Below are positions 19,391 through 62,540 of a stretch of 64,000 nucleotides of DNA, in pieces (positions within the stretch are counted from its first letter, which is position 1; each line of letters starts with the position of its first letter). The notes beneath the pieces are model-generated. The model saw only the letters and a list, made by a program, of their open reading frames with translations, was not told where the DNA came from and searched no databases. The stretch is from NCBI GenBank assembly GCA_000091205.1, contig AP006497.2; one strand, 5' to 3'. The translations under genes and the position numbers were made by a program. The stretch is from Cyanidioschyzon merolae. Taxonomy: Eukaryota.

Positions 19391-21600
19391 ATGGAAAATA
19401 CCAGAGCAAGTTATGGACATGGAAGTCGAGGATCCTGGAGGGCCGGTGTCGCCGGCTGCCGGAAAAATTAGGGAAAACAGTGGCGAGCAAAGAGGAACAG
19501 AAGAAGAAGAAGCCAAGCCAGGAGGACCGACATCAATGACTGCTAGAAAGACAACAATGCGACGAGTTGGTTGTGACAGCCTGTCTTCTTGGACATATCA
19601 CAGATCCGTGCAAGCCAAAGTTGCAAGCGGCCATCAGAAATCGTGTCATTTCGTACTCCCTGAGTATTCGAAATGCTTCTTCAGGACTAATGAATTTGGT
19701 GAGCAAGATATATCGCAGCGTGACAATTACGAAAACAGTCGAGATTCCGGAGGAATTTATCTACAAGAGCTTCATTTGTCACCTGATGGTTGGCACAAGG
19801 GAATCATCGAGGAGAAATGGGGGAGTGCACACCCTCCACGAAACCGACGGGGCAACAAAGTACCACAAGAGCCTGAAGAATCATATGACCATGAACCTCG
19901 AACGTTTCATGATACGCGCAGTGTTTGCGCCATACCCGGGAATCTCTCGCAAAGGAATATGGGCGACTATCAATGGCATCACGAACGATGGTCATCATGA
20001 AGATGAGATAGAATTCATCGACAAGAAGACGTCACACAGGAGCAAGAATGAAGCTTCTGTAATCCGTGCGCGTATTCAAGAGCGTCGTGGGTTACTGGGC
20101 GGGCGGATCCAACAGAAAAGATATCAGAGTTGAAAAAAAATATGCAAAGATACTATCGCCTCATCCTACGGTATTTCATGTTCCTGGATCGAGAACTCGA
20201 ACGCAAGGCAGAGGTGACGTTAAGTGGGGGAAAATGAAGAGTGGGAGAGACGGAAGGCTCTCCTAATAGGAGAGCGCTTCAAAGTCGTTCCGTTGTGGAA
20301 CATGAAGTCACATTTTGTGACTACCGACTCCAGAGTCCTTTACGGTATCATGGAGGTGATCAGTTCGGAGTTCGATGTAAGGAAGACAGAGTTCTCTGGT
20401 GAAACCCGGGAACGAACTGGAAGAATATCTTCGATTTCAAACGTCTGAAAGTAAGCAAACAAAAGGTATTCACTGGTATGATCGAAACAGATGGGGTAAC
20501 CATGTGTGTACACTATCGGTGCTTGAAGGTGGATCGCCCAGTTCCGCTCGTGACGAAGCATGAAGATGAGAAGGAGGCGGATCCTTCGACGCAGAAAGTG
20601 CAGGATAACGACTTTGTTGTTGGCGCGGACCCCGGGGAATATGAATATCATAACCAACGCAGCACCCAAGCGTGCGGAAGGTGGCATTGACGGTACCTTA
20701 CGTCAGAAAGACATGCGACTTTTCAGGTTTTCGAGAGCGAAATGCTATCTAGAAACGGGTAGAATGAATGCGAGGAAAAAAATCGAGAAATGGAATGCAG
20801 GAATGAGAGAGCACCTGGAAGCTGTGAGCGATGTGACGAGCCACGGAGCGGACGTTCAGGCTTTTCTGAAATTCATGGAAGTTCGCATATGGCGCACCGG
20901 GATGCGCTGTGGGAGGAGTATGCCAAGCCCCGGTGGGCTCGTTTGCGAATGAATCTATACGGTGGTAAGCAGCGGGCATTTGCGAATTTTTTCAATGAGT
21001 TGAGCTCCCTGAAGGAGGACGAGAGTCAGAGGCTGGTTGTAGCATACGGAGCAGGTCGCTGGATGATCCCGAACGAGACTACGCCAGCTCCAAGGACAAG
21101 AACGTACAAAGAGTGCGCATAGCGTTCCGGCACGATACCTGTAGATGAGTTCCGAACATCGTATACACACCATGAACTGGGGTGTATACTCCAGAGGGTG
21201 TAGATGGAAAAGTGTCAGCGGAGTCCTGAGGATATAGCAAAGTACGGAGCGCTGACGGAGGAGCAAATGGAAAGGGGGCGAAAGTTCGAGGACTTCTCGC
21301 ATTGGTACGTACAATCAATGGCAAGAAACGTATGGAGTTTGTGAACCGAGGCTTGAACGCCGCCATCAATATCAGGAGATGTGCGGTGCTGGAGACGAGA
21401 CCTCCAAAGCTGACGAGAGAGAATTTTGTGGGGGAACCTCTTATGGTCATATTATACGGCAAGAAGCTGGAACCACTCGTAGGTTGCCGGTCCAAAAAAA
21501 CCGGGAGGCGTCTGCACGTCAGTTGGACGCTTTTCGTCTGGGGCGCCGGTCGCCGCCACTTTTGTACACCGCCGGCGGCTGCGTTTTTCTTTAGAACGGC
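19391..21600 (+). mobile_element. Fanzor/TnpB-like element, copy C (degenerate; multiple frameshifts)
   Basis: Collinear homology to copies A/B across ORF fragments 19567..20133, 20224..20448, 20478..20690 ([11 protein letters not shown], a RuvC-I-like DPG motif), 20560..20952, 20790..21122 (LVVAYGAGRW) and 21302..21661 (KRMEFVNRGLNAAINIRRCAVLETRP). A 1-nt indel relative to copy B is visible at about 21270. The 5' end 'tatggacatggaagtcgaggatcctggagg' is shared with the 31.1-kb copy. Confidence 0.6.
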
Positions 21601-21633
21601 CTTCGGTGTTAGCGTTGGCACTAGCAGTTTATC

Positions 21634-23037
21634 ATGTTCAGCTACGCTGGAAACGCTTTGACCCGTCTTACATTTAGCAATGGAATAGAACGTGAACATC
21701 GGAGCGAGTTGACGGGTAGCAGTCGCTCCAGACGGTCGCACCGCCAGGTAACGCTGCCGCTGCGGACGTACGCAGCACGTACGCGCGCTTATAGCTCCGC
21801 CGATGCTACCAAATTTTTGGATGCGAGGAAGTTACCGTTTTTGAGAGCAACGAAAGTGATCAATTGCTGCTCGAGCTTGTCGATGCGGGACTCGGGCAGC
21901 AGTGGTGCAACCGGCACCGCCCCTGTTGGCACCAACAGAAACACAGCAGCGCAGCGGGTCGGACGCGCTGCAGTTGACTGGCAGTCTCTCGGTTTCGGGT
22001 TCACGCCGACCAACTGCTACGTCAAAGCGGTCTGGAGAGAGCAAACTGGGACCTGGTCTCCTGTAGAGGTCGTCCCATACGGACCCAACGGTGAAGCTAC
22101 GTTCCCTCTGCACGTCGCGTCGACGGCCCTGCACTATGGACAGTCCATATTCGAGGGCCTCAAAGCGTTTGCATGTGCCGACGGGCACGTTCGATTGTTT
22201 CGTCCACAGGAGAATGCCCGCCGTCTCGAGCGCTCGGCCTTGCGTCTGAATATGCCAGTGGTACCAGCTGCGCTTTTCCTCGAGGCGGTGACCCGATGTG
22301 TATACGAAAATCTGGAATTCGTGCCCCCGTATGTCGAACAAGGCGGTGGCGGATCACTCTATGTACGCCCTGTTCTGTTCGGATCTGGAGGTCGCATTGG
22401 CCTCGGCCCAGCTGATGAGTATACCTTTATGGTGCTGGTGGTGCCGGTCGGCAACTACTACAAGGGCGGCTTATCGCCAGTCACAGCATACATATCCACG
22501 AATTATGATCGAGCTGCGCCCCGCGGTGTGGGTCACGTCAAAGTGGCAGGCAACTACGCCGCCGACTTGAAACCGAGCATGGAAGCGAAACAACGAGGCT
22601 ACCCGATCAATCTCTATTTGGATGCGCGTGAGCAAAAGTTTATCGAGGAATTCGGAACCAGCAATTTTTCTGCGGTACGCTATCTAGATGAAAACGGAAA
22701 CCGATATGTATACGTTACACCAGACAGTCCCTCGGTTCTGGAAGGTGTCACCAACAAAACGCTCATGGAGCTTTCACTAGATGCAGGGATGAAGGTGGAG
22801 CGACGACGCATTCCTGTCGAGGAGTTGGCAACGTTCGATGAGGTGTTCGCCTCGGGAACCGCTGTTGTGATCACAGCTGTGGACCAGATTGTATATGGTG
22901 ATCAGGTCATCGGCATCGGTAAGCATCCCGGCTCTGGTCAGGTAGGACCTGTGGCGCGCCGACTCTACGACACCGTGCGCGGGCTTCAGACGGGGCGATT
23001 GCCAGACCGGCACGGATGGACGTATTTGGTCGCCTGA
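21634..23037 (+). CDS. BCAT: Branched-chain amino acid aminotransferase (BCAT, PLP fold type IV), probably mitochondrial
   Basis: The catalytic domain from about aa 115 has BCAT motifs: GFGFTPTNCYV, YGQSIFEGLKAF, LYVRPVLFGSGG, VKVAGNYAADL, EVFASGTAVV. The first about 110 aa are presequence-like and the start codon choice is uncertain. The ORF begins less than 50 bp after the end of Fanzor-like copy C. Confidence 0.85.
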   Translation: MFSYAGNALTRLTFSNGIEREHRSELTGSSRSRRSHRQVTLPLRTYAARTRAYSSADATKFLDARKLPFLRATKVINCCSSLSMRDSGSSGATGTAPVGTNRNTAAQRVGRAAVDWQSLGFGFTPTNCYVKAVWREQTGTWSPVEVVPYGPNGEATFPLHVASTALHYGQSIFEGLKAFACADGHVRLFRPQENARRLERSALRLNMPVVPAALFLEAVTRCVYENLEFVPPYVEQGGGGSLYVRPVLFGSGGRIGLGPADEYTFMVLVVPVGNYYKGGLSPVTAYISTNYDRAAPRGVGHVKVAGNYAADLKPSMEAKQRGYPINLYLDAREQKFIEEFGTSNFSAVRYLDENGNRYVYVTPDSPSVLEGVTNKTLMELSLDAGMKVERRRIPVEELATFDEVFASGTAVVITAVDQIVYGDQVIGIGKHPGSGQVGPVARRLYDTVRGLQTGRLPDRHGWTYLVA

Positions 23038-26531: not shown

Positions 26532-27954
26532 CCAGCAGCGTGATATAGGCTCTAGCGCCCACCAGGTCGGAACCGGCAGTAACTAGAATCCCCAGTACCT
26601 CTCTGGTGCTGAAGAGCGATAATCCGATTCCGGTACCGGGGGCGATCAGAGCGCAGCATTTGCTGCTGCCCGAGTCGAGGATCTCCTGCAGCAGCGCATG
26701 CGGCACCAAACCTGTTCACAGCGAAATGCATGCAGTATTTATGGGAAGGTAACCCCGCGCTCCGATTCCATCGGATATCACGAATTACTGCAAGCTATGG
26801 TGAAAACAGCTTGCGGTAAGGGAACGTCACGTACGGCGTTTGAATATCGGCATGATGTACAGGCTGAGTCATCGCATGGTGCACCAGGCGTGCTTTTTTC
26901 CGCACTGGTCGTGACGTCATTCATTGGCGCCGTGTGCATGGCAATGCATGCGTACACACAGGCGCGCATTTTCTATATACATAGACTCGAATGCGACACA
27001 TGCGTTCACTACTGATCGCTGTATACAGCGAGCACCAGCAGCAGCACTGGACTTGAGAGCGCCTAAAAAGAATAGAGACTAATCGCTAACTAGCTGCAAC
27101 TGTGCCGGAAGTACAAATACTAACAATTAAGTAGCTACTCGATAACAATTCCGTGCCACCTTCACGGTAAGCTTTGAAAAGGGAGCATTATCCCGTAATT
27201 TCGAAAGTTTACCTCATAGGCGGAGAGTCCCACCAGCCGGACGAATATGTCGGACCTGCGCTCCCTGCTGCTCCCAGACCCGAGTGCTGTGGCAAGACCT
27301 GTACAGATCGTCCATCACGCATTTCATTCACGGACTAGGAATGGGTAGGTTGCATCCAAGTGTCGCCCTGGTCGCTGTCGGCTTGTGGTATAGCGCTTCG
27401 CGTTGCCGCTGGCAGTAGGTCTGTCTGAGTAGCTTGCATGCACCCAGCATGATTATGGATCCCGATCCCGCACCATGCAAACTACACCTCCAGCCGATGC
27501 CCTCATCGATACCGTAAAGCGGTTCTGTCGCCCTAACGCATCTTCCCCAGCGGTATACGCGCTATTGCAGGTGCAGCAAGGCAGGCACTCGGCGCACGCT
27601 AGAACCTACGGAACGACAAGCGTATCCGAAAGGAACTCGCCGAAATGGAACGTGAATGCATGATGCATCATGATGGACGAGTTTCCGATTACCAATATCC
27701 ATCCCACAAACTGACATCCATGTACAAGTAAACGTTCTGACGAATGAGAAACATAGTCTTGAAAATGCTCCTCGACGGCGCCTGTGTCCAGATGATTCCC
27801 GCCAGGAGTGCGCAGCGCCGCAGGCGATCGTGATCCATCCTGCCTTGGACCATGGTATTCACTTTCCGCAGGCGGGGTAGTGTGTGCACAGTTTCAGGAG
27901 AGGCTGACGCACGTAGACGTTGTTTAGGGGAACTTTTGGCCGCGTTTAGGCCCT

Positions 27955-29781: not shown

Positions 29782-30229
29782 ACACGGCAGCATGAAATTT
29801 TCGGATTCAACTAAAATGTTCTTTTGTATTCAAGGGGGCAATGCGCTACGCTGTGTCCGATATGTAACCACGGAATGACGGATGATGCTGAATTGCTGCA
29901 TCTGATTGGATGTCACCGGAAAGGCAATTGCTGCTGACGACCACGGAGGATGCGTCGTTTCCTGCAAATACGACGATATTGATGGATGGTATCACAATGG
30001 GATAGCGTTTGGCGAAGCTGGGGACGCAGCGAGTCCTTTCTGATCCCAAGTCGCCGTGAATCCGGCGGTGCGTTCCTCGTAACCCGGTGATATGCTGCTT
30101 GTCGAAGTCTTGCGATTCAATTGGTAATACCTCTGTTGCGTCTGGTAGAATGCTTTTCGGCAGTGCCGAACATGAGATCGAAATCCCCATGAAATATACC
30201 GTATAGATCGCAGACGAATTGCCTGTAGG

Positions 30230-31035
30230 ATGTACGTTCCTTACTGAACAGTGCACAGAGTACTGCATTCCGTATTCAGGTCCGTCGTACCACAGAACTC
30301 AGATGGTTGAGGAACACGGAAAAAAAGAAGGATACGCGTTCCGCGTCAGCAACCGATATTCTAAAAGACTGCTTGCGGTCAATGGTGGTGGACGACCCAT
30401 TGATCACCGTACGAAAAGCAGAAAGCGACGATAGTTGCTATCGCGGGCGTATCTGAATCTCGCCAGCTTGTCGCTGTGCTCCTGAAAACACTGAGATGCG
30501 GTCGTAAAAAAGAATCCTAGTTCATGCACGATCAACTTCTGCTGAAATCGCAACTACGACACAGTCCCTGCAAGGTTACGATCGATATGAAGCACAGGGA
30601 CGTCGGTTCCTTTTTGCAGTCGACGAGACCTGCATCGAACGAAACCGTCGGCGCGTATATGGGTATTCGCAGCTAGGGAGCCCGTTGCGTATACGGATGA
30701 AGTCGAAGAGAACGAGGATATCATCTGTTCGATCTGCAGTGGATATATTTGGCGGCCTCAGACGCTTTCACGGAGAAGGCTCACGCAACGGCACCAACCA
30801 TTATGTCGAATCCTTGAGGACTTTTCCCTTGACGCCCAGCAACGCCCCTCTACTGGACAACGTGGCATTTCACCATTCTCTTTGGCTTCGAGCTTTTGCC
30901 GATTCCCGCGGGGCAGATCAGCTTTTCATTCCTCCGTACGCTCCGTGGCTCAACCGCATCGACGGAGTGTTTTCTATCGTGAAACGTAATGATCACTTTA
31001 CAGAGCGCATTGATGAATCCTTCAGGACACGGTGA
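30230..31035 (+). mobile_element. Tc1/mariner(IS630)-like DDE transposase remnant (frameshifted)
   Basis: HTH region (SKRLLAVNGGGRPIDHRT, homologous to 5442 LAVNGRKRPLDH), first catalytic region VDETCIERNRRRVYGY, third catalytic region and DDE_3 tail LLDNVAFHHS...LFIPPYAPWLNRIDGVFSIVKRN. Spread over at least 3 frames. Confidence 0.6.
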
Positions 31036-31136
31036 CACACCAGGGCACAGTACCTCGTTCGTCCACGTGTGCTTCTGCCTCCGGGACGCCCCACTCCCTG
31101 GGTCATATTGAAGTGCTTTCATCAAAGGAAATAGAA

Positions 31137-31623
31137 CATCTATGGGACAGGTATGGACATGGAATTCGGGAATCCTGGAGGCTCGGTCTAGCCGGGTGTC
31201 GGAAGAGAAACGGAAACATCCTCTTCTCGCCAACCAGCAAGCGAAGAAGAGCAAGTCGTGAAGAAGAAGAAGAAGACGAGGAAAAGCGGAGATAGGCGAG
31301 GAAAGTTGGTTGTCCGATGTGACGATGACGGGACTGTAGTGGCGCAGAAGGCGCAAGTTCTAGGAATCCTTGCATTGGTACGTTCCACCAACGGTATTGC
31401 AAGCATGGCGTTCGTAAACAAAGCCTTTAACGCTGCTATCAATATCAGACGATGTGCGGTGCTGAAGACGAGACCCGCGGAGCTTACGCGATCTAAATTT
31501 GTATGGCAGCCGCTAAGGCTCGAAGTGTGCAGGGATAAACCGAAACCGATAGCAGGTGGCAGGTCAAAATACGCTGGGAGGCGTCTACACGTCGGTGTAG
31601 ATACAGACACGCTATCGTCGTGA
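31137..31623 (+). mobile_element. Internally deleted (MITE-like) derivative of the Fanzor-like element: 5' about 190 bp joined to 3' RuvC-III module
   Basis: The 5' part matches the copy C 5' end ('tatggacatggaattcgggaatcctggagg', (gaa)n tract, 'gttggttgt'). It then jumps directly to the 3' module (ORF 31258..31623: ...AFVNKAFNAAINIRRCAVLKTRPAELTR...GRRLHV). It sits immediately downstream of the DDE remnant at 30230..31035. Confidence 0.55.
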
Positions 31624-45128: not shown

Positions 45129-47726
45129 TCAAAATGGAGATTCTGCACCCGATAGGGACGAGACGGCGTACATGCCTTCCAAGTCGGAGGCGCTCCACGC
45201 ATCCATGTTGGCTTCGTCGTCCTCCGCCGAGAGACGCAGATATTCGAGTGCTGCGAAGCGATCCCAGTCCGTTAGGTCGGGGACTGCCCGCTCCTGTCTC
45301 AAGAGTGATGGATCTCGACTTTCGATCGCGATGAACTTGTTCAAGTTGAACAGGATATTGAAGAAATGGCTCTGCATGCGACTGGATCGTAAAGCTGAAC
45401 GCGTGATCACCGGTGGATCAAGATCCTTGCTGATCATGTCCAGCAACTGACAGAGAATATCCTCAAATGCAACTGGTTCGTGCCCCAGACACTCCATTCG
45501 ATGCAGTTGTTCTGAATAGAGCCAATCAACATCGTACAGGGTGATCTTTCCATCGCCGTCCGCATCAATGCAGCGAAACCAATAATCCAAGGCCGTCTCT
45601 GAATTCTTGTCTTCCTCGCTGAGGATAAACCAGATGAAATCCGTATAGCTCATGTAGCCTGGGCGTGCGCAGTCGAGAGGCCTTCCTCGTCCACTAAAGA
45701 TACAGTCAATGATCCGGTAGGTCAGGGCGTGCCCGTTGTAGCGCAGCAGATCCTCGCGGTCGATCATGAGATCATGATCTGTGTCCAATTCCCAGAATCG
45801 ACAGTAAATCACGTAGAAATGCTCGTAGCTGAAACAACTACGCTCCTGGTTGATGTCCTCTTGTTCGTCGACGCTTCGAAAAATGTCCAAGAGACGATGT
45901 CGGCGGATATCCGACAGATACGCCTGCCCATTCGGCCGGTTCAGATAGTAGAATATCCGTTCGATGACTGTCTCAGCGTAGCGATGCTGGAACTCTGGGG
46001 TGGACTGCAGAAACTGTAAGCCGGGATGCGTCGCCAGCAGCGCATCAATGAAGGGTCGAAAGTCGGAACCAACAAGGTATCGGCGCTCATGTGCTTGTCG
46101 GTCGGCTCGATCCCGTTGCCCGTCGAGATTCCGCCGATTCGATGTCCATGAAGCTGCTGCAGACCTGGGCGAGATGCTGCTTCTTGGTGAGGATACGCTG
46201 TGAGCGTCGCTCTCCGTACGCTCCTCGTTCGGAACCGATGCGTGATAGTCACGGGAGCGTTGGAGTGCGTGGAAGAGGCGAGCGTGTCGATCGTAGCCGG
46301 CACAGTCCTCAACATACCATTGCAAGAATATGGACTGATGGATACGCTCACCCGTTGCCCCCGGGATGCTGATCTCCTTTGCGCCCTTCTTGTTCGTACC
46401 TTCTACCTCCGAAGCTACGTTGGACGTTTCGAAGTGCTGTTGGCGTTGGAGCAAGCGCTCGAAAATGACCAGCGAGACAAAGCTCGGCAACCCGACAATG
46501 TCCATAATGAGTTCAACGACCTCGCGCTGGCTCAGTGCTCCGTCTTGGCAATCAAAAGCGGCCTGTATGGCCTGTTGTTCTTCTGCAGCCCGGATGACGT
46601 GTTCGTGCGCGCGCCCATCTGGATAGTAGAAGCGCGGGATCGTCTCCGCCTTTGCGAATGCGCACTCTGATGGTACAAAGAGCGCATTCACCGCTGAACG
46701 CTTGTTCAGACCTCCTGAATGGAGCGCATTTCGCTGGTGTGCTGTCTCCTCACATGCAGGTAATGGTGGCGAGAACGATGCTCCATTCTCAGTCGAAGAG
46801 CCATCGTGGCCTACTCCCGAGTCCATATATGATGCGATCTCATGGCAACGCTCCTCGGTATCGGATTGACCATGTGCCATCGCCGCATCGCTATCCTCAA
46901 CTTCGGACCAGATCCTAAAAACCTCATACTTTCTGATGAAATGTGATACTGGCGACTGTGGGCTCGACGTCAAAGAAGCTTCCTCTGTGGAGCTACTCCG
47001 TGAACGGCCTTGCCTTGCAACGCGTGCTTCGCCACCAGCGGGCGAGCCCGGAGTTTGGCTCAAGATGCGATAGAAGGCGCTGCGCGCCGCTCCGGCCGGG
47101 GAGTTTGGCGTAATGGTATCGGCATTCGTCGGACGCTTTGCGGTTGCCCCGTGCGATGCAGCATTACACGAAGCTGTCGGGCTCGAAAGTCGTTCCTGGC
47201 GGAGCATGGTAGGCTTCGGTGAACCAGCAGTCACAAGATCTTCGTCGGTCACCCTTCCCGTGACGTCCAGTTTCCCCAGGACCTGCTCCAACCAAGCGAG
47301 CGTTTCCGGGAGAAACAACCAACGCATAAAGAGGTACTCTAAGTGCCGTTTCGGCTCTAGCGCAATATCCGTGGCCGATAGCGTCACCAGCAGTTTTGGT
47401 GCGTCCATGGTGCCGGAAATCGCGTGCACACCGGACTCGTCGCCCCCGGTAACAAACACAGCTGTAACCTCTATACCAGACTCTATGGTCTGCTCAGAGG
47501 ACATTATTGAAGCGTTCCTACGTAGATCACTCGAGCTGCTGCAGCTCAGCGGAGTCAGGCCGGGGAGATGTGTGCCAAGCCTCACCCGCTTGCGTCTCAA
47601 GACACGAGGCGAGACTGGAACGCACCTTTCAACTTTACAACCATCGCCAGAAGCCGTTCGAAAGTCGAACGACGTCGGGCGTGTACAGTAGTGGCGGCGA
47701 ACGCGCCCTAGACAAATCGTCTCCAA
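45129..47726 (-). CDS. Protein phosphatase 2A regulatory subunit B-double-prime (PR72/PR130/TON2-type, EF-hand containing)
   Basis: Conserved B-double-prime core: FYYLNRPNGQAYLSDI, FWELDTDHDLMIDREDLLRY, EF-hand DADGDGKITLYDVDWLYSEQ, FEDILCQLLDMISK. The N-terminal about 500 aa are low-complexity and Ser-rich. The first codons overlap the end of Fanzor-like copy A, so the true start is probably downstream. Confidence 0.75.
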   Translation of the reverse strand: METICLGRVRRHYCTRPTSFDFRTASGDGCKVERCVPVSPRVLRRKRVRLGTHLPGLTPLSCSSSSDLRRNASIMSSEQTIESGIEVTAVFVTGGDESGVHAISGTMDAPKLLVTLSATDIALEPKRHLEYLFMRWLFLPETLAWLEQVLGKLDVTGRVTDEDLVTAGSPKPTMLRQERLSSPTASCNAASHGATAKRPTNADTITPNSPAGAARSAFYRILSQTPGSPAGGEARVARQGRSRSSSTEEASLTSSPQSPVSHFIRKYEVFRIWSEVEDSDAAMAHGQSDTEERCHEIASYMDSGVGHDGSSTENGASFSPPLPACEETAHQRNALHSGGLNKRSAVNALFVPSECAFAKAETIPRFYYPDGRAHEHVIRAAEEQQAIQAAFDCQDGALSQREVVELIMDIVGLPSFVSLVIFERLLQRQQHFETSNVASEVEGTNKKGAKEISIPGATGERIHQSIFLQWYVEDCAGYDRHARLFHALQRSRDYHASVPNEERTESDAHSVSSPRSSISPRSAAASWTSNRRNLDGQRDRADRQAHERRYLVGSDFRPFIDALLATHPGLQFLQSTPEFQHRYAETVIERIFYYLNRPNGQAYLSDIRRHRLLDIFRSVDEQEDINQERSCFSYEHFYVIYCRFWELDTDHDLMIDREDLLRYNGHALTYRIIDCIFSGRGRPLDCARPGYMSYTDFIWFILSEEDKNSETALDYWFRCIDADGDGKITLYDVDWLYSEQLHRMECLGHEPVAFEDILCQLLDMISKDLDPPVITRSALRSSRMQSHFFNILFNLNKFIAIESRDPSLLRQERAVPDLTDWDRFAALEYLRLSAEDDEANMDAWSASDLEGMYAVSSLSGAESPF

Positions 47727-50195
47727 TTGCTGTGTAGACGCCTTCCCGTCTTTTTGGAGCGGCCGCCAACTACTGCTTCCAACTTTTTCTCATATAGTTC
47801 GACCTTGAGAGGTTGTCCAACAAAGTTCACTCTTGTCAACGCTGGAGGTCTCGTCTCCAGCGCCGCACATCTCCTTATATTGATGGCGGCGTTAAAGTCT
47901 CGGTTCACAAACTCCATACGTTTCGTGCCATCACTGGTTGTACTTACTGATGCAAGCAATCCTCGAACTTTCGCTCTCCTTTCCATTTGCCCTTCCGGCA
48001 GCGCTCCGTACTTTTTCGTATCCTTAGGGCTCCGCTGGCACTTTTCCATCTCCACCCTCTGGAGTGTACACCCCAGTTCATGGTGTGTATACGATGTTCG
48101 AAACTCATCTACAGGTATTGTTTCAAAACGCCGTGCGCGCTCCCTCTACGTTCTCGTCGTTGGAGCTGGCGTCGTCCTTTTTGGGTCTTCCATCGGCCTG
48201 CTCCGTACGCTACTATGAGCCTCTGACTTTTATCCTCCTTCAAGTCACTCAACTGATTGAGAAAGTTCGCGAACGCACGCTGCATCCCACCGTAGAGATT
48301 CATTCGCAAACGAGCCCACCGGGGCTTGGTATACTCCTCCCACAGCGCATCCCAATGGGCAACACGAACTTCCATGAATTTCCGAAAAGCATCAAGGTCC
48401 GCTCCTCGGCTCGTCACCTCGCTCATAGCTTCCAGGTGATCCTTCATTCCTGAATTCCATGTAACGATTTTCTTCCTCGCATTCACTATACCGGATTCTC
48501 GATAGTATCTCGCTCTCGAGAACCTCAACAGACGCATGTCTTTCTGACGAAAGTTGCCGTCAGCACCATCTTCCGCACGCTTGGGAGCAGCGATGGTGAT
48601 GATATTCGTGTTTCCGGGGTCCGCGCCAAGGACAAAGTCGTTATCCTGCACTTTCTGCATCGCAGGATCCGCCTCCTACTTTTCTTCATGCTTTGCCGCG
48701 TCAGCGACAAAGTCGTTATCCTGTACCTCCAGCGTCTCAGGATCCGCCTCCTTCCCATCTTCATCCTTCGTCACGTCAACGTTAAAGTCGTTATCCTGCA
48801 CTTTCTGCATCGTAGGACCCGCCTTCTTCTCATCTTCATGCTTCGTCACGTCAACGACAAGGTCGTTATGCTCCACCTCCTGCGTCGCAGGACCCGCCTC
48901 CTTCTTTGCTTCATCCTTCGTCACGGGCGCAGCCGAGGGCGGAACTGGCCGATCTTTCCTCAATGCCGATAGTGTACACAGATGGCTACTCCATCGGTTT
49001 CGATCAACCCAGTGAGTACCTTTTGTTTGCTGACTTTGAGAAGTTTGAAATTGAAGATATTCTTCCGGTACGCCTCCTGGTTTTCACCGGAGAACTCCTC
49101 CCTGCGAACATTGAACTCCAGACTGATCTCCTTCATAATGCCGTGAAGGATTCTGGAGTGGATGGACACAAAATCTGACCTTATGTTGCACATTGGAACC
49201 ACGTTGAAGCGCTTCCCCATTAGGAACGCCTTCCGTCTCTCCCGCTCTTCATTTCTTTCCTCACTCAGCTTCATCTCCGCTTTGCGTTCGAGCTCTCGGT
49301 CCAGAAACACGAAATATCGCAGGATGAGGCGATAATATCTTTCCTTATCTTTTTTCAACGCTGATATCTTTTCTGCTGGATTCGCCAGCCCCAAGACTGC
49401 ACAGTGCTCTTGTATAGCCGTACGGATTACAGAATCCTCATTCGTGCTCTCGTTTGACGCCTTCTTGTCAACGAATTCGATCTCATCTTCATGCTAGCGA
49501 TCTTTCGTGATGGCATCGATAATCGCCCATATTCCATTGCGAGATAGGCCCGGGTAGCGTGCAAACACGGCGCGTATCATGAAACGTTCGAGGTTCATAG
49601 TCAAATGCTTCTTCAGGTTCGTGAGCTACTTCATCGCCCCATAGTCGTAAATATTCGAGTCACCCTTGTATCGAGTACCATTGAATCTGTAAAAGGGATG
49701 TTTTTCGTGGAGGGTATGCACTAGCACATTTTCCTTCCGCGCTTTCTCTTTACGAAGCATCAGGTGTTGAATAAACGTCTTATCGATGGACTCGTCCGGA
49801 ATCTCGACCGTTTCGATCTGCGTCACGTCGCGATACATCTCTCTCGCCAAATGCATCAGTCCTGACGAAGCCTTGACAAGACTCTTGGAGTACGAGTCGA
49901 CACGGTTTTCGATTGCGTCTCGCAACTTTTCCCTGTACGGATCCTTGATATGTCCAAGAAGAATGGTTGTCGCCACCTTCTCGACGTACAGCCGTCTTTC
50001 TTGCCGCCTTCGACGTAGGGCCTCTCCCTTTAGGTCCTTCTTCGCTTCCTTGTCTTCTGGACTCGGCACAGTTTTCGTTTTTTTCTGGTAGTCGGCGACA
50101 CTGAGCCTCCAGGATCGTCGGCTTGCTGTTTCATAGCTTTTTTGTTTCTTTGAAAAACAACGCTCTTTGAAGGCTTCTGTTACATACAGCGACAA
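47708..50195 (-). pseudogene. TnpB/Fanzor-like RuvC nuclease pseudogene (about 650 codons over 4 frame-shifted segments)
   Basis: Homologous segments are in-frame and continuous in copy C (for example TLHETDGATKYHKSLKNH) but interrupted by TAG stops here (YGAMK*, KDR*). Confidence 0.6.
48617..48900. repeat. Coding minisatellite (about 69-nt unit, about 4 copies) inside copy A; single copy in copy B
   Basis: Repeated peptide module K[DH]EDEK[KE]AGP..Q.VQDNDF.VDVT (ORF 48676..48963). The corresponding stretch at 55880-55940 in copy B has one unit. Confidence 0.75.
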
Positions 50196-51149
50196 AACGC
50201 TTGACTAGACTTGTTTGAGGTTTGAACCACAAATGAATTAGAAAACTACACTTTGCTACGACCTGAACGGATATCCAATGTTTTACAGCTGAACAACACG
50301 TTACTGATGCCCACGACAGGGACCTTTACCACAATGAACGGAGGGGCGGAGGCAGTAGCAGCAGAAAATATTGACGATAATTCTGAGTAGTTATCCGCTG
50401 CTCCCGAAACAACGCTGCAGCTTCGGGCGCAAAATCTGGGTCCATCCTCGAGCTCGGGCTCAGTTTTACCTCCTTCTTCGGTTTCTACCTCAACTCTGGA
50501 AACAATCTCGGCGGATATTTTGGAAGACGGCTGGCGGTATGTTCGCGTTCGAAGCTGGAACGAACGACTTGCCCGCCTATGTGTTTGGGGAGCGGATACA
50601 AAGCCGCTGAAAGGTTGGTTCGTAGAGTATCCCCAGTGGTTGAGGGGAGCTTCATGTGTCCGGCAAGATAAAGGTCGCATTCGAGTCGACCTTGACTAAT
50701 GTACATCTGATTCTACGCTAGTGCGGCGCCAAGCACTCAATGAACGACTGGAATGCGGGAGGCGCTGGTGGCATGTACGCTCACACACCCCGTGGAGGGT
50801 GCATCTAAATTGACGACGTATCTCTGGAGTACCGCAGCGCTATTCCTATTCCGTTACGCGCTACAAATCGGTAGGTATTGCATCATGGAATATTTGTGGT
50901 GTAGCCTCGAAACTAGAATAAGAGATATCGAATTACTAGTAGAGTAAAGAGGATCAGATACAACTGAAGGACTCTACAAAAGGAAAAGCGATCCAACGAG
51001 ATACGGAGAAGGAGACACAGGAACCTCATGATCCACCTAGATGCAAAATAACCAGAGAAAGCAGCTCAGGAAAGAGCCCGAAGAAGAAGAAGACCAACAA
51101 GAAAAGACAGAAGAATAGAGAGAAGAACTCCCAAGCGAGCCCATCATGA

Positions 51150-53378: not shown

Positions 53379-54477
53379 AAGGCTCCCGCCGCCTCTAGCG
53401 AACGGTCCGAACAACCATATGGGAATTTAGACAAGGTACCAGTCGCGCAAGTAACGCCGGCTTGACCCTATCCGGAACTACACCCTAGCATACACATGCA
53501 AGTACTGGTAGGGGGTGCTGGAATTCCCGGGACTTGCTCGAGGTACCCAGTGGCTCGCCAAAATCCGCGTTGGTGGCTTCCGGCTGGCAGCACCGGCTCT
53601 AAGCCGGAAAGGAGCACTGGAATCGCACTGGGAATCACACTGTCCCTGCTGTGGAGACGAGAGCCCCCGAGAAGCTGACGCATTTACTGTTACAGTGCCC
53701 GCGCTAGAATCAGGAGCGCAGCGAGCTCCTTGAAGGACAGCAGCAGCTGGGCATCAGCGTGATAGTGGAAGGCCGGACACTCATTCTGAGTGTAGCACTG
53801 GCAACTGATGGTCCGCTAACCGAGCCGCAGCGCTCGTTAGTGGCGAACAAACTCACATTCTACCTTCTAAGCGGCAGGTCCAACGAATCGGATGAGCACA
53901 CGGGTTTAGTGCTCTTTGTGCCTGCCTACTGGCGGGTGTCAAGCACAAACCCGCATTGCCGACCGACAACACATTCAATGCATGATCACGAAGGAGAGAG
54001 GCGGCTCCCAGGATTCATCCTAACAGCCAAGTTTCTCCAGCGTGTCGTGCAGCGAAGGTAAGACTGCATTTGCAGACTCGCTGAGCATATATCGACGAAG
54101 AGACCCGATTCTACGTCGGGTGAACCACGCCTCGAGCCGACGCCCTCTGTGGTATAGCAACGCCGTTCTGTCTCTATGAGCTATCTGCTCCAGCATTTAA
54201 GGTGCAAAGGCGAATACGGAGCGGCAGCTACTAGGCACACACGATAGGACGTATGAAACGACCAGAATATCTGAGATGAAGCATAGGTAATCTAACTTGG
54301 AGGCAGGTGCTTCATCATGGACGCTTTCCCGAAAGCCATTATCCATTCCAAATTCTGGGATCCATGGTCAATGGAAACGTCTTGTCAATAACAAAAAAAC
54401 AAATTGCGCTCGGTGGGCGCACCTCGGAGATCGGGAAGTCAACTGACACGACGCGCATGCCGCCGTAGAAGGGTAAC

Positions 54478-56890
54478 GCGATTGGGATCAGTAACGTGTT
54501 GTTCAGCTGTAAAACATTGGATATCCGTTCAGGTCGTAGCAAAGTGTAGTTTTCTAATTCATTTGTGGTTCAAACCTCAAACAAGTCTAGTCAAGCGTTT
54601 TGTCGCTGTATGTAACAGAAGCCTTCAAAGAGCGTTGTTTTTCAAAGAAACAAAAAAGCTATGAAACAGCAAGCCGACGATCCTGGAGGCTCAGTGTCGC
54701 CGACTACCAGAAAAAAACGAAAACTGTGCCGGGTCCAGAAGACAAGGAATCGAAGAAGGACCTAAAGGGAGAGGCCCTACGTCGAAGGCGGCAAGAAAGA
54801 CGGCTGTACGACGAGAAGGTGGCGACAACCATTCTTCTTGGACATATCAAGGATCCGTACAGGGAAAAGTTGCGAGACGCAATCGAAAACCGTGTCGACT
54901 CGTACTCCAAGAGTCTTGTCAAGGCTTCGTCAGGACTGATGCATTTGGCGAGAGAGATGTATCGCGACGTGACGCAGATCGAAACGGTCGAGATTCCGGA
55001 CGAGTCCATCGATAAGACGTTTATTCAACACCTGATGCTTCGTAAAGAGAAAGCGCGGAAGGAAAATGTGCTAGTGCATACCCTCCACGAAAAACATCCC
55101 TTTTACAGATTCAATGGTACTCGATACAAGGGTGACTCGAATATTTACGACTATGGGGCGATGAAGTAGCTCACGAACCTGAAGAACCATTTGACTATGA
55201 ACCTCGAACGTTTCATGATACGCGCCGTGTTTGCACGCTACCCGGGCCTATCTCGCAATGGAATATGGGCGATTATCGATGCCATCACGAAAGATCGCTA
55301 GCATGAAGATGAGATCGAATTCGTTGACAAGAAGGCGTCAAACGAGAGCACGAATGAGGATTCTGTAATCCGTACGGCTATACAAGAGCACTGTGCAGTC
55401 TTGGGGCTGGCGAATCCAGCAGAAAAGATATCAGCGTTGGAAAAAGATAAGGAAAGATATTATCGCCTCATCCTGCGATATTTCGTGTTTCTGGACCGAG
55501 AGCTCGAACGGAAAGCGGAGATGAAGCTGAGTGAGGAAAGAAATGAAGAGCGGGAGAGACGGAAGGCGTTCCCAATGGGGAAGCGCTTCAACGTGGCTCC
55601 AATGTGCAACATAAGGTCAGATTTTGTGTCCATCCACTCCAGAATCCTTCACGGCATTATGAAGGAGATCAGTCTGGAGTTCAATGTTCGCAGGGAGGAG
55701 TTCTCCGGTGAAAACCAGGAGGCGTACCGGAAGAATATCTTCAATTTCAAACTTCTCAAAGTCAGCAAACAAAAGGTATTCACTGGGTTGATCGAAATCG
55801 ATGGAGTAGCCATCTGTGTACACTATCGGCATTGAGGAAAGATCGGCCAGTTCCGCCCTCGGCTGCGCCCGTGACGAAGGATGAAGCAAAGAAGGAGGCG
55901 GGTCCTGCGACGCAGGAGGTGGAGCATAACGACCTTGTCGTTGACGCGGACCCCGGAAACACGAATATCATCACCATCGCTGCTCCCAAGCGTGCGGAAG
56001 ATGGTGCTGACGGCAACTTTCGTCAGAAAGACATGTGTCTGTTGAGGTTCTCGAGAGCGAGGTACTGCCGAGAATCCGGTATAGTAAATGCGAGGAAGAA
56101 AATCGTTACATGGAATTCAGGAATGAAGGATCACCTGGAAGCTATGAGCGAGGTGACGAGCCGAGGAGCGGACCTTGATGCTTTTCGGAAATTCATGGAA
56201 GTTCGTGTTGCCCATTGGGATGCGCTGTGGGAGGAGTATACCAAGCCCCGGTGGGCTCGTTTGCGAATGAATCTCTACGGTGGGATGCAGCGTGCGTTCG
56301 CGAACTTTCTCAATCAGTTGAGTGACTTGAAGGAGGATAAAAGTCAGAGGCTCATAGTAGCGTACGGAGCAGGCCGATGGAAGACCCAAAAAGGACGACG
56401 CCAGCTCCAACGACGAGAACGTAGAGGGAGCGCGCACGGCGTTTTGAAACAATACCTGTAGATGAGTTTCGAACATCGTATACACACCATGAACTGGGGT
56501 GTACACTCCAGAGGGTGGAGATGGAAAAGTGCCAGCGGAGCCCTGAGGATACGAAAAAGTACGGAGCGCTGCCGGAAGGGCAAATGGAAAGGAGAGCGAA
56601 AGTTCGAGGATTGCTTGCATCAGTAAGTACAACCAGTGATGGCACGAAACGTATGGAGTTTGTGAACCGAGACTTTAACGCCGCCATCAATATAAGGAGA
56701 TGTGCGGTGCTGGAGACGAGACCTCCAGCGTTGACAAGAGTGAACTTTGTTGGACAACCTCTCAAAGTCGAACTATATGAGAAAAAGTTGGAAGCAGTAG
56801 TTGGCGGCCGCTCCAAAAAGACGGGAAGGCGTCTACACAGCAGTTGGAGACGATTTGTCTAGGGCGCGTTCGCCGCCACCGCTGAAAACT
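54478..56890 (+). mobile_element. Fanzor/TnpB-like element copy B (right arm of inverted duplication), pseudogenised
   Basis: ORF fragments 54600..55169, 55401..55835, 55832..56461 ([19 protein letters not shown] at 55937-55966; LIVAYGAGRW) and 56515..56862 (NRDFNAAINI at 56665-56694; ...GRRLHSSWRRFV stop). Confidence 0.65.
54600..56862 (+). pseudogene. TnpB/Fanzor-like RuvC nuclease pseudogene
   Basis: Same as the copy A pseudogene; identical premature stops. Confidence 0.6.
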
Positions 56891-57163
56891 GCGGGAAGCA
56901 ACGTCTTTCTTTTGAAAGAGGTTTGTTGTTGCTGGTGGCGGTTGTGCATCTTTATATCCTGGATCGTGTCAGCGATCTCACACGGTACAAAAGTTGAAGG
57001 GGTGCAACACACGTACAGCTTCTCTGTCTGGGCACGTGCAACGCTCGAATCCTGGCGGCGCTCTCGAGACTGATAGAGAAAGCCCGCTTGTGAGGTATGC
57101 TCGGCGCTTGTTTGATTCGCGCTCTTACCCTGCGCAGGAAGCCGTGAACAAAATACTGCTGGC

Positions 57164-62096: not shown

Positions 62097-62540
62097 CTGA
62101 TAAAGCGCTTTGCTGAGTACGAGACGTTCTCGTGATGAGAGCGCAGCCCCGGTGCTTGTCTCTCGCAGTGATCACGCCCATGGCAGAGCACTGGGAACCC
62201 CCGCATTGCACTCATAAAGCGCTTTGCTGAGTACGAGACGTTCTCGTGATGAGAGCGCAGCCCCGGTGCTTGTCTCTCGCAGTGATCACGCCCATGGCAG
62301 AGCACTGGGAACCCCCGCATTGCACTCATAAAGCGCTTTGCTGAGTACGAGACGTTCTCGTGATGAGAGCGCAGCCCCGGTGCTTGTCTCTCGCAGTGAT
62401 CACGCCCATGGCAGAGCACTGGGAACCCCCGCATTCCACTCATAACGCGCTTTGCTGAGTACGAGACGTTCTCGTGATGAGAGCGCAGCCCCGGTGCTTG
62501 TCTCTCGCAGTGATCACGCCCATGGCAGAGCACTAGGAAC
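62097..62540. repeat. Tandem satellite, about 115-bp unit x about 3.9
   Basis: The unit 'cataaagcgctttgctgagtacgagacgttctcgtgatgagagcgcagccccggtgcttgtctctcgcagtgatcacgcccatggcagagcactgggaacccccgcattgcact' is repeated head-to-tail; the last copy has point substitutions. Confidence 0.85.

What the first reader, a model, noticed from the sequence alone, without database searches (positions are those of the whole stretch)
54478..56890. Eukaryotic TnpB/Fanzor-like RuvC nuclease gene family (five copies in the window), apparently lacking the canonical zinc finger
All five loci (5897..6469, 21302..21661, 31258..31623, 47708..48055, 56515..56862) share a C-terminal block: K/R-R-[MI]-[EK]-F-V-[NR]-R-D-x-N-A-A-I-N-I-[RG]-R-C-[AP]-V-L. 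This is the RDxNAAxNI RuvC-III signature that defines prokaryotic TnpB/OrfB and eukaryotic Fanzor proteins. The three long copies also carry a RuvC-I-like V-V-[DG]-A-D-P-G motif about 240 aa upstream (55937-55966) and a [IV]-V-A-Y-G-A-G-R-W block where RuvC-II would be expected. Fanzors are eukaryotic RNA-guided endonucleases derived from TnpB.

In all copies, the 15-20 residues preceding RDxNAAxNI (for example LLASVSTTSDGTKRMEFVN) contain no CxxC pairs. The zinc finger that normally sits between RuvC-II and RuvC-III is therefore absent or relocated. A RuvC-II glutamate is also not obvious.

This could be a divergent, zinc-finger-less Fanzor subfamily, or a domesticated or decayed derivative.
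Basis: partly seen in the sequence, partly recalled or inferred. Interest (0 to 1): 0.8.

Follow-up and report, generated by a model that had tools for sequence, protein, structure and literature searches.

The report
Known red-alga Fanzor1 transposon, zinc-finger-less

Summary
The window is Cyanidioschyzon merolae 10D nuclear DNA. Region 54406-56918 matches the published 3169-bp CMe-1A consensus (Bao & Jurka 2013) at 86.7% identity. That element encodes the 734-aa Fanzor1 protein CMe-1.

The window also holds a sixth, divergent copy and two fragments of the TE-N2 5' module. Every copy is a pseudogene.

A profile of relatives hits only solved Fanzor1 structures (E 2.9e-22 to 2.5e-10). A confident model of a 39%-identical intact relative (pLDDT 88) superposes on SpuFz1, PpFz1 and GtFz1.

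The catalytic D, E and D are invariant or nearly so in 78 diverse relatives.

The canonical C4 zinc finger is absent. Of the four Cys positions only the third is commonly kept (57/78), and CMe-1 has Ala there. This is a trait of the clade, not decay.

The 3' UTR has hairpins and a conserved box, consistent with an omega-RNA, but support is modest.

The family is already known. The extent of zinc-finger loss is not discussed in the papers I read.

The parts
54406..56918 (+). Copy A: core of CMe-1A (consensus positions 649-3166). This is the flagged locus, and it is a pseudogene.
   Evidence: 86.7% identity to the published consensus over 2511 columns. It has 3 frameshifts (about 54720, 55831, 56393) and 3 in-frame TAG codons (55167, 55299, 56422).
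54104..54387 (-). Inverted TE-N2-like 5' module (consensus positions 4-282) abutting copy A.
   Evidence: blastn to the consensus. The same inverted arrangement occurs in metagenomic copies L058, L023, L016, L047, L029, L069 and L027.
54661..56862 (+). Degenerate Fanzor1 (CMe-1) coding region: ATG at 54661, stop TAG at 56860-56862.
   Evidence: Three-frame translation and tblastn with the published 734-aa protein.
55949..55957 (+). RuvC-I DPG motif (catalytic Asp at 55949-55951).
   Evidence: D is invariant in 78/78 relatives and P in 76/78. It aligns with SpuFz1 D383.
56354..56380 (+). IVAYGAGRW strand. This is my inference for the position of the canonical TnpB RuvC-II Glu, which Fanzors replace with Gly or Pro.
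   Evidence: The Gly is invariant in 78/78 relatives. Jiang 2023 (PMC10530073) describes the Glu-to-Gly/Pro substitution and a compensating Glu about 45 residues away. Here the invariant Gly lies 33 residues before the relocated Glu.
56458..56478 (+). VDEFRTS: the relocated RuvC-II catalytic Glu (56464-56466).
   Evidence: E is invariant in 78/78 relatives. It aligns with SpuFz1 E541. It lies six residues before the position of the first zinc-finger Cys, as in the Fanzor fingerprint.
56479..56664 (+). TNB-domain remnant without a C4 zinc finger. It contains THHELGC (56482-56502), EKCQ (56524-56535) and VRGLLASVSTT (56602-56634).
   Evidence: No CxxC pair. At the four Cys-equivalent columns, 78 relatives have: Cys1 H29/Y12/C8; Cys2 D41/T27/C0; Cys3 C57; Cys4 no Cys among the eight commonest states.
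56665..56694 (+). RuvC-III NRDFNAAINI (catalytic Asp at 56671-56673).
   Evidence: R 78/78 and D 77/78 in relatives. It aligns with SpuFz1 D606.
56863..56918 (+). 3' UTR and right end. It has a post-stop GGCG..CGCC hairpin, a degenerate CACTACTGTACAC box and a terminal hairpin. It is a candidate omega-RNA scaffold or transposon end.
   Evidence: Alignment of about 50 copies, pair counts and folds. Similarity between copies stops a few bases after GGCG.
47653..50308 (-). Copy A': inverted partner of A (consensus positions 729-3168). It carries the same 3 frameshifts and 3 stops, plus three extra 75-nt repeat units.
   Evidence: 97-99% identical to A over 47681-50311. Lesions are shared. Its 3' tail is of a different sequence class from A's.
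18518..21600 (+). Copy B: full-length CMe-1A (consensus positions 5-3168). Pseudogene.
   Evidence: 84.7% identity to the consensus, with 7 frameshifts and 3 stops.
5233..6557 (+). Copy C: internally deleted derivative. An unrelated 5' module 'X' (5233-6194) is joined to the last 350 nt or so of the Fanzor ORF (6204-6557, from consensus position 2737).
30160..31596 (+). Copy D: second copy of the X-module plus Fanzor 3' fragment derivative.
   Evidence: 70% identical to C over both parts. HMM hit at 31330-31533.
2011..3281 (-).
   Evidence: 33-36% amino-acid identity by tblastn. HMM hits cover profile positions 113-609.
27109..27739 (-). Solo TE-N2_CMe-like element (consensus positions 7-635).
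   Evidence: 75% identity to the 5' 635 bp of CMe-1A. TE-N2_CMe is described in PMC3627910.

Best explanation
The locus is a decayed copy of CMe-1A, a multicopy DNA transposon of Cyanidioschyzon merolae. Its single gene encodes the Fanzor1 protein CMe-1.

Shown here: the sequence matches the published element. The protein family is homologous in sequence and predicted fold to the solved Fanzor1 nucleases. It keeps the Fanzor-specific catalytic arrangement: DPG Asp, a relocated Glu in DEFRTS, and the RD Asp. All six copies in the window are pseudogenes. The C4 zinc finger of the TNB domain is lost in CMe-1 and in a large clade of intact relatives.

Inferred: when intact, the protein binds an omega-RNA transcribed from the 3' end of the element. 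The RNA's 3' tail reads into flanking DNA and guides RuvC cleavage of matching DNA next to a short motif (TAM), which helps the transposon persist.

For CMe-1A the candidate RNA scaffold is the 60-85 nt after the stop codon. The candidate TAM or target motif is the T-run (TTTTY) found just 5' of nearly every copy.
For: Organism:
- ORF 27955-29778 is exactly C. merolae 10D XP_005537550.1.

Identity with the published element:
- Published consensus and protein were retrieved.
- Mapping gives 85-87% identity for the long copies.

Homology to Fanzor1:
- A 78-sequence profile hits only Fanzor1 chains in the PDB: 9CF0 at 2.9e-22, 8GKH at 6.4e-15, 9CER at 2.5e-10.
- In that alignment the family's D, E and D align with SpuFz1 D383, E541 and D606.
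- The AF2 model of P0031 (39% identical to copy A, intact, 702 aa) has pLDDT 88 and pTM 0.87.
- Its seven best Foldseek hits are all Fanzor1 (E about 1e-14 to 1e-16, TM up to 0.72). Cas12 proteins follow at E >= 1e-3.

Selection:
- D 78/78, E 78/78 and D 77/78 in diverse relatives.
- Majority-base fraction by codon position in 40 non-redundant CMe-1A copies is 0.909, 0.925 and 0.828.

Zinc-finger loss:
-.

3' RNA candidate:
- Hairpins are 74% paired, against 36-60% when partners are slid.
- Cells with changes on both sides number 23, against 15.2 +/- 2.8 in shuffles (1/500).
- Distant subfamilies have conserved 3' UTRs of roughly 120-200 nt with a hairpin plus a CTACTG-like box, and one compensated stem.

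T-run:
- Position -4 is T in 19/20 copies. There is 1 A in 120 cells at -6..-1.
Against: - No activity, RNA or expression data exist for this lineage.
- All window copies are dead. Among about 60 CMe-1A-type environmental copies, only L002 and L058 keep a long ORF (722 aa).
- Support for the 3' UTR structure is weak. RNAalifold predicts only 3 pairs, fold z-scores are -0.1 to -2.4, and the copies share descent.
- The 3' UTR is less conserved overall (0.73) than third codon positions (0.83).
- The zinc finger stabilises the TNB domain in the solved Fanzor1 and TnpB structures. Its loss could impair cleavage.
- Standard models do not recognise the protein. Pfam PF07282 scores E=0.23. NCBIfam guided_TnpB scores 11-14 bits against a cut-off of 100.
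- The T-run could be the terminal bases of the element rather than a target or TAM.
Confidence: 0.85

Rival explanations
1. The zinc-finger-less proteins are nuclease-dead or domesticated RNA-guided DNA binders (like TldR-type TnpB derivatives) rather than nucleases.
For: The C4 zinc finger is missing. Pfam files the proteins only under a DUF (DUF8286, weak).
Against: - The catalytic D, E and D are invariant or nearly so in 78 diverse members. Known domesticated derivatives lose them.
- The genes are multicopy, decaying and carried on repeat elements with defined ends. They are not single-copy host genes in conserved synteny.
Confidence: 0.05
2. The missing zinc finger is only an artefact of pseudogene decay in these particular copies.
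For: Every copy in the window carries frameshifts and stops.
Against: - The published consensus lacks CxxC pairs.
- So do intact relatives (P0031, 702 aa; P0047, 699 aa).
- So do nearly all of the roughly 100 full-length cluster representatives in which the interval could be read. All of these keep the catalytic residues.
Confidence: 0.02
3. The RDxNAAxNI block belongs to a family unrelated to TnpB/Fanzor, and the resemblance is convergent.
For: Single-sequence and shallow-profile searches against Pfam and the PDB gave nothing significant.
Against: - The deep profile hits only Fanzor1 structures, over 300 or more residues.
- The full-length predicted fold matches Fanzor1.
- The family was published as Fanzor1.
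Confidence: 0.01
4. CMe-1 has replaced the C4 site with a new metal site built from His-His-x3-Cys and the Cys of EKC (an HHCC-like site), so the TNB domain still binds zinc.
For: - HHELGC and EKC are kept in most CMe-1 copies, and HHxxxC is kept in P0031 at 39% identity.
- The first His occupies the Cys1 column.
Against: - P0047, which is closer to P0031, has THAETGQ with no Cys there.
- Across 78 relatives these columns are not conserved: H in 29/78 at Cys1, no Cys at Cys2, and Cys in 2/78 at the HHxxxC Cys position.
- Conservation within CMe-1 copies is uninformative at 70-80% identity.
Confidence: 0.15
5. Classification of the carrier: CMe-1A and its short relatives are non-autonomous Helitron2-like (rolling-circle, HUH) elements. 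Their mobilising enzyme sets the T-run target.
For: - There is no TIR or TSD.
- A terminal 3' hairpin of about 10 bp occurs in two sequence classes.
- The 5' end sits after a T-run, as reported for Chlamydomonas Helitron2 elements that insert after TTTT.
- The 5' GACAAAACGT is the reverse complement of ACGTTTTGTC at the stop codon, which resembles an asymmetric TIR.
- Internally deleted derivatives keep both ends.
Against: - No RepHel gene was looked for or seen.
- The 3' partner of the putative ATIR lies about 60 nt from the end, not 20-30 nt, and it is coding sequence.
- The 5' module is variable: direct, inverted or replaced. The true 5' end is therefore uncertain.
- A Crypton-like or other mechanism is not excluded.
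Confidence: 0.2

Closest known systems
Fanzor1 CMe-1 on element CMe-1A, with TE-N2_CMe (Bao & Jurka 2013, Mobile DNA 4:12; PMC3627910)
   Same: This is the same family. The window copies are 72-87% identical to the published 3169-bp consensus, and the protein motifs are the same.
   Different: Nothing essential differs.

Additions made here:
- The copies in this window are all dead.
- The 5' TE-N2 module is direct, inverted or absent in different copies.
- The paper describes a strictly conserved C4 zinc finger, but its own alignment shows CMe-1 without it.
Solved Fanzor1 nucleases: SpuFz1 (8GKH), PpFz1 (9CF0) and GtFz1 (9CER)
   Same: - Bilobed fold, with TM up to 0.72.
- DPG Asp, relocated Glu and RD Asp align with D383, E541 and D606 of SpuFz1.
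- Transposon-borne.
   Different: - Only 13-15% sequence identity.
- SpuFz1 has a CCCC zinc finger in its NUC/TNB domain. In the alignment both SpuFz1 and PpFz1 show CxxC...CxxxxC Cys pairs. The CMe-1 clade keeps at most the third Cys.
- Omega-RNA and activity are shown for those proteins and not for this one.
Prokaryotic TnpB (IS200/IS605, IS607) and Cas12f
   Same: RuvC fold, the RDxNAAxNI helix, and an RNA-guided mechanism encoded at the 3' end of the element.
   Different: [quoted passage not shown]
- NCBIfam guided_TnpB scores only 11-14 bits.
- Foldseek E >= 1e-3 for Cas12 proteins.
Helitron2-borne Fanzor1 of Chlamydomonas (CRe-1, 2, 3)
   Same: A Fanzor1 gene on a non-autonomous element without TIRs, with a 3' hairpin and insertion after T-runs.
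   Different: CRe elements share their ends with verified Helitrons. No such link has been shown for CMe-1A.

Membership tests
Fanzor1 (eukaryotic TnpB-like omega-RNA-guided nuclease) | Identity or close similarity to a published member | tested here: met
   85-87% nucleotide identity of copies A, A' and B to the published CMe-1A consensus. The protein motifs are the same.
Fanzor1 | DPG motif with the catalytic Asp in RuvC-I | tested here: met
   VVDADPG at 55937-55957. D 78/78 and P 76/78 in relatives. Aligns with SpuFz1 D383. Fingerprint defined in PMC10711439.
Fanzor1 | [quoted passage not shown] | tested here: met
   VDEFRTS(YT)H, with E at 56464-56466. E 78/78 in relatives. Aligns with SpuFz1 E541. 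The Gly of AYG is invariant; its correspondence to the canonical Glu site is my inference.
Fanzor1 | RuvC-III Arg-Asp in the RDxNAAxNI helix | tested here: met
   NRDFNAAINI at 56665-56694. D 77/78 in relatives. Aligns with SpuFz1 D606.
Fanzor1 | C4 zinc finger between RuvC-II and RuvC-III (OrfB_Zn_ribbon / Cas12f1-like TNB, PF07282) | tested here: not met
   No CxxC pairs. PF07282 scores E=0.23, below its cut-off. Cys-equivalent columns in 78 relatives: Cys1 C in 8/78; Cys2 C in 0/78; Cys3 C in 57/78 (Ala in CMe-1); Cys4 no Cys among the eight commonest states.

Yoon 2023 says 'many', not all, Fanzors have the zinc finger. I therefore treat it as typical rather than obligatory.
Fanzor1 | Overall Fanzor1 fold (WED/REC/RuvC/TNB) | tested here: met
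   AF2 model of the intact relative P0031: pLDDT 88. The top seven Foldseek hits in the PDB are all Fanzor1, with TM 0.53-0.72. This was tested on a 39%-identical relative, not on the broken window copy.
Fanzor1 | Omega-RNA encoded at the 3' end and reading into the flank | tested here: inconclusive
   The 3' UTR has conserved features and hairpins with some compensatory changes. RNAalifold support and fold z-scores are weak. There is no Rfam match and no RNA data.
Fanzor1 | RNA-guided, TAM-dependent DNA cleavage | not testable with these tools
   Needs biochemistry.
Prokaryotic TnpB (NCBIfam NF040570 guided_TnpB) | Score above the curated cut-off | tested here: not met
   Best score is 14.5 bits (E=0.016) against a cut-off of 100. 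Only the RuvC-III end matches.
Helitron2-type non-autonomous element | 3' subterminal hairpin, asymmetric TIRs, insertion after T-runs, no TSD | tested here: inconclusive
   The hairpin and the T-run are present. A 10-nt 5'/3' complement exists, but about 60 nt from the end and in coding sequence. No empty sites were found.
Helitron2-type non-autonomous element | Ends shared with an autonomous RepHel-encoding element | not tested

The most novel reading that the evidence does not exclude
CMe-1 is the one published member of a large clade of Fanzor1 nucleases. The clade has at least about 100 full-length 50%-identity cluster representatives, out of 1978 profile hits, and members occur in Cyanidiales red algae and on giant-virus-like contigs. 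It has dispensed with the TNB zinc finger while keeping an intact catalytic triad and the Fanzor1 fold. Its members would be active, zinc-independent RNA-guided nucleases. CxxC-based screens would not retrieve them, and Pfam labels them only as a DUF.
Probability: 0.45. Interest if true: 0.55.

Novelty: already known. Interest (0 to 1): 0.3.

Why it matters
The locus itself adds little. The family was named and its consensus deposited in 2013, and the copies here are dead.

The useful by-product concerns the zinc finger. It is treated as a fixed landmark of TnpB and Fanzor: it is part of the 2013 motif definition, it is part of a 2023 regular-expression screen, and a 2026 review uses it as its reference point for the catalytic Glu. 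Yet it is absent from a large clade of relatives that are otherwise intact.

If those proteins are active, two things follow:
- The zinc finger is dispensable for the TNB domain. This matters for engineering compact editors.
- Surveys that rely on CxxC motifs or on PF07282 under-count eukaryotic and viral Fanzors.

Tried and rejected
- **Pfam on the four ORF fragments and on intact relatives.** Nothing significant.
- **phmmer of the CMe-1 consensus, and a 13-sequence profile, against the PDB.** Nothing. Only the 78-sequence profile worked.
- **First AF2 run with the shallow alignment.** Unusable, pLDDT 38.
- **Rfam.** No family matched in the window or in six loci.
- **RNAalifold on 35 right ends.** Only 3 pairs. 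A stem enclosing the ACTACTG box forms in single-sequence folds, but in different registers, so I do not claim it.
- **Search for empty target sites.** Flanks blasted against all held loci recovered only the same insertions from other samples.
- **A longer terminal direct repeat.** The idea was that the 5' flank resembles the 3' subterminal GGCGGCAGCGTTTTTC. Once the T-run is excluded the similarity is marginal: 5.95 against 5.24 +/- 0.27.
- **The sixth RDxNAAxNI-like site at 42264.** Rejected as chance, with no HMM support.
- **Organism names for the wider clade.** All ten representatives checked were unnamed metagenome or Logan sequences.
Full report
**Where the window comes from**

The window has long intron-free ORFs for ordinary eukaryotic housekeeping proteins: EF-G, SHMT, SRP54, an RFC subunit and aminotransferases. 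ORF 27955-29778 is exactly the Cyanidioschyzon merolae 10D protein XP_005537550.1, on a 902,900-bp record. The window is therefore nuclear DNA of this thermoacidophilic red alga.

**Checking the observation**

A degenerate DNA pattern for RDxNAAxNI finds six sites, against 0.01 expected by chance. Repeat finding, tblastn and a family HMM show what they belong to.

- Three long copies: A at 54406-56918 (+), A' at 47653-50308 (-) and B at 18518-21600 (+).
- Two C-terminal fragments: C at 6204-6557 and D at 31347-31596.
- The site at 42264 has no HMM support and is chance.

The flagged copy is not an open gene. Measured against the family consensus it has three frameshifts and three in-frame TAG codons.

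**What it is**

A protein search returned only unnamed metagenome proteins. The literature gave the answer. Bao & Jurka (2013, PMC3627910) list one Fanzor1 family in C. merolae.

- The protein is CMe-1, 734 aa.
- The element is CMe-1A, with a 3169-bp consensus and about 150 copies, each roughly 80% identical to the consensus.
- It has no TIRs and its TSDs are undetermined.
- Its first 635 bp equal a second repeat, TE-N2_CMe.

I retrieved the consensus from their supplement and mapped it to the window.

| Copy | Consensus positions | Identity | Lesions |
|---|---|---|---|
| B | 5-3168 | 84.7% | 7 frameshifts, 3 stops |
| A | 649-3166 | 86.7% | 3 frameshifts, 3 stops |
| A' | 729-3168 | 87.2% | same lesions as A, plus 225 nt of extra 75-nt repeats |
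| C | 2737-3093 | 71.8% | fragment |
| D | 2840-3092 | 73.0% | fragment |

A solo TE-N2 lies at 27109-27739 (-). The family is therefore already known and named.

**Independent test of Fanzor membership**

I did not want to rest on the name alone. Single-sequence and shallow-profile searches fail. NCBIfam's guided_TnpB model gives only 11-14 bits against a cut-off of 100.

A profile search of 1.84 billion cluster representatives found 1978 relatives at E <= 1e-3, of which 299 are at E <= 1e-30. Most are intact proteins of 580-700 aa.

A profile of 78 of them hits exactly three things in the PDB, all Fanzor1:
- Parasitella PpFz1, E = 2.9e-22;
- Spizellomyces SpuFz1, E = 6.4e-15;
- Guillardia GtFz1, E = 2.5e-10.

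In the SpuFz1 alignment the family's DPG Asp, DEFRTS Glu and RD Asp fall on chain residues 777, 935 and 1000. With the 394-residue tag offset these are D383, E541 and D606, the catalytic residues named by Xu et al. 2024 (PMC11423790).

With the same 78-sequence alignment, AlphaFold2 gives a confident model of P0031 (pLDDT 88, pTM 0.87). P0031 is an intact 702-aa relative, 39% identical to copy A. Its seven best Foldseek matches in the PDB are all Fanzor1, at E of 4e-14 to 4e-16 and TM up to 0.72. Cas12 proteins follow only at E >= 1e-3.

**The RuvC-II glutamate**

Yoon et al. 2023 (PMC10711439) and Jiang et al. 2023 (PMC10530073) describe two Fanzor fingerprints.

- The RuvC-I motif is DPG.
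- The canonical RuvC-II Glu is replaced by Gly or Pro. A compensating Glu lies six residues before the zinc-finger position, about 45 residues from the canonical site.

CMe-1 fits both. The working Glu is in VDEFRTS (56464-56466), also 78/78.

**The zinc finger**

In the solved Fanzor1 proteins the motif reads TSxxCPxC...HGLLxCxxxxC. Saito et al. describe a CCCC site in SpuFz1.

CMe-1 reads TSYTHHELGC...EKC...VRGLLALVSTT, so the four positions are:
- His at Cys1;
- Leu at Cys2;
- Ala at Cys3;
- nothing at Cys4.

Bao & Jurka's own alignment shows the same gaps, although their text calls the C4 finger strictly conserved.

Across the 78 relatives the four columns are:
- Cys1: H29, Y12, C8;
- Cys2: D41, T27, C0;
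- Cys3: C57, Y11;
- Cys4: no Cys among the eight commonest states.

Of the roughly 100 full-length representatives in which the interval between DEFRTS and RD could be read, nearly all have no CxxC there. Two look transitional:
- P0182 keeps CxxC...CxxxxC;
- P0055 keeps the first pair.

The loss is therefore a trait of the clade in proteins that are otherwise intact and conserved. It is not decay.

A replacement HHCC-type site in CMe-1 is possible but poorly supported. P0047 lacks the Cys, and the columns are not conserved.

None of the papers I read discusses a zinc-finger-less Fanzor1 clade. The 2026 review still uses the finger as its reference point for the catalytic Glu.

**State of the family**

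In 40 non-redundant CMe-1A copies the majority-base fraction is 0.909, 0.925 and 0.828 at codon positions 1, 2 and 3. Copies therefore diverged under protein-level constraint, as Bao & Jurka argued.

Most copies are now broken. Among about 60 environmental CMe-1A-type loci, only L002 and L058 keep a 722-aa ORF. Sister subfamilies are intact, at 702 and 699 aa.

One clade member (P0069) lies on a contig that looks like giant-virus DNA: it carries EsV-1-7-like, DUF5755 and DHFR genes. In locus L084 a second, zinc-ribbon-bearing TnpB-like gene lies about 5 kb away.

**How it probably works**

This part is inferred. Fanzor1 proteins use an omega-RNA transcribed from the 3' end of the element. Its last 14-20 nt come from flanking DNA and act as the guide, and cleavage needs a short AT-rich TAM.

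In about 50 aligned right ends the stop codon is followed by four features:
- a GGCG...CGCC hairpin, with a few fully compensated variants (for example L028, AGCG..CGCT);
- a conserved CACTACTGTACAC box;
- a terminal hairpin of about 10 bp, which exists in two sequence classes with a shifted register;
- an end near GGCG|TT(T)G, after which copies are unrelated (majority fraction 0.73 in the UTR, 0.42 in the flank).

Pair counts support the two hairpins modestly:
- 74% of cells are paired, against 36-60% when partners are slid.
- 23 cells have changes on both sides, against 15.2 +/- 2.8 in shuffles (1/500).

RNAalifold and fold z-scores are weak, and the copies share ancestry.

Distant subfamilies have conserved 3' UTRs of roughly 120-200 nt, two of which end in GAGTATA. 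Each has a GC hairpin followed by a CTACTG-like box. One stem is compensated between L052 (CCACTC/GAGTGG) and L054 (CCGC/GCGG). I regard the 3' UTR as a candidate omega-RNA scaffold and nothing firmer.

At the other end, 20 non-redundant copies are preceded by a pyrimidine run:
- position -4 is T in 19/20;
- positions -3 and -2 are T in 16/20;
- position -1 is C in 12/20 and T in 7/20;
- there is 1 A in 120 cells at -6..-1.

The unrelated X module of copies C and D is preceded by a T-run as well. This is either a target or TAM motif, or the last bases of the element. No empty sites were available to decide.

**The carrier element**

- The 5' part is modular. Upstream of consensus position 645 or so, copies carry the TE-N2 module direct (as in the consensus and copy B), inverted (copy A at 54104-54387 and seven environmental copies), or something else entirely.
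- C and D are internal-deletion derivatives. They join a different 5' module to the last 350 nt or so of the gene.
- Several features recall the Helitron2 elements that carry Fanzor1 in Chlamydomonas: no TIR or TSD, a 3' hairpin, the T-run, and a 10-nt complement between the 5' GACAAAACGT and ACGTTTTGTC at the stop codon.
- No RepHel link has been shown, and I give this reading about 0.2.

**A and A'**

The two are 97-99% identical from consensus position 727 or so to 3137, and they share all six lesions. Their last 30 nt belong to different right-end classes.

This fits gene conversion between two independent inverted insertions about 4 kb apart better than a simple duplication. I did not test it further. 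A reverse-transcriptase remnant lies between them.

**Verdict**

The family is already known, and the copies here are dead.

The one point of wider interest is that the zinc-finger loss is real, clade-wide and coupled to a fully conserved catalytic triad. None of the papers I read discusses this.

Noticed in passing
47681-50311 (-) and 54484-56889 (+): Copies A' and A form an inverted pair. They are 97-99% identical internally and share 3 frameshifts and 3 stops. Their last 30 nt or so belong to different right-end sequence classes, which suggests gene conversion between two independent insertions rather than duplication.
   Followed up: partly
48624-48923 (copy A'); also proteins P0001, P0008, P0020, P0030: A 75-nt (25-aa) tandem repeat lies just upstream of the RuvC-I strand. 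The unit resembles ...ATQEVEDNDLVVDATKHEE... It varies in copy number between elements, and A' has three more units than A.
   Followed up: partly
5233-6194 and 30160-30997; L020:1953-2908; L051:7070-8041: An unrelated 'X' module of about 960 bp replaces the TE-N2 module in some elements. In copies C and D it is joined to only the last 350 nt or so of the Fanzor ORF. These look like non-autonomous internal-deletion derivatives.
   Followed up: partly
54104-54387 (-); L058, L023, L016, L047, L029, L069, L027: The TE-N2-like 5' module is inverted relative to the Fanzor unit in a whole subfamily, direct in others and absent in others. The core Fanzor unit seems to start near consensus position 645.
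   Followed up: partly
5' flanks of 20 copies, e.g. window 18504-18513, 27746-27755 (-), 54391-54400 (-): A pyrimidine or T-run (TTTTY) immediately precedes the 5' end of almost every copy, including copies with the X module. It is a possible target site or TAM. Similarity of the flank further upstream to the element's own 3' subterminal sequence is only marginal.
   Followed up: partly
CMe-1A consensus 5-14 versus 3098-3107 (in copy A, 3' partner about 56850-56859): The 5' GACAAAACGT is the exact reverse complement of ACGTTTTGTC, which overlaps the last codons and the stop. It resembles an asymmetric terminal inverted repeat of the Helitron2 kind. Copy B shows one compensating change.
   Followed up: partly
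   Followed up: partly
52022-53378 (+): Two adjacent ORF fragments match reverse transcriptase (RVT_1). They are a retroelement remnant lying between copies A' and A.
   Followed up: no
L083:8001-9896; L084:5989-7884 and L084:12743-14515: A zinc-finger-less clade member (P0069) sits on densely packed contigs with EsV-1-7-like, DUF5755, DUF5679 and DHFR genes, which look like giant-virus DNA. In L084 a second gene with a canonical Cas12f1-like TNB domain lies about 5 kb away.
   Followed up: no
62090-62541; 63633-63866; 10326-10489: Tandem repeats of 114 nt (about 4 units), 117 nt (2 units) and 82 nt (2 units). The first two lie inside long minus-strand ORFs with no Pfam match.
   Followed up: no
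25404-26531 (+) and 36290-37555 (-): Two glutaminyl-cyclase-like (Glu_cyclase_2) ORFs lie about 10 kb apart on opposite strands.
   Followed up: no
L052-L055, L013; L004-L006; L001/L003/L007: Distant subfamilies of the same clade have conserved 3' UTRs of roughly 120-200 nt. In the first two groups the UTR ends in GAGTATA, after which independent insertions diverge. Each UTR has a hairpin followed by a CTACTG-like box, and one stem is compensated between L052 and L054.
   Followed up: partly
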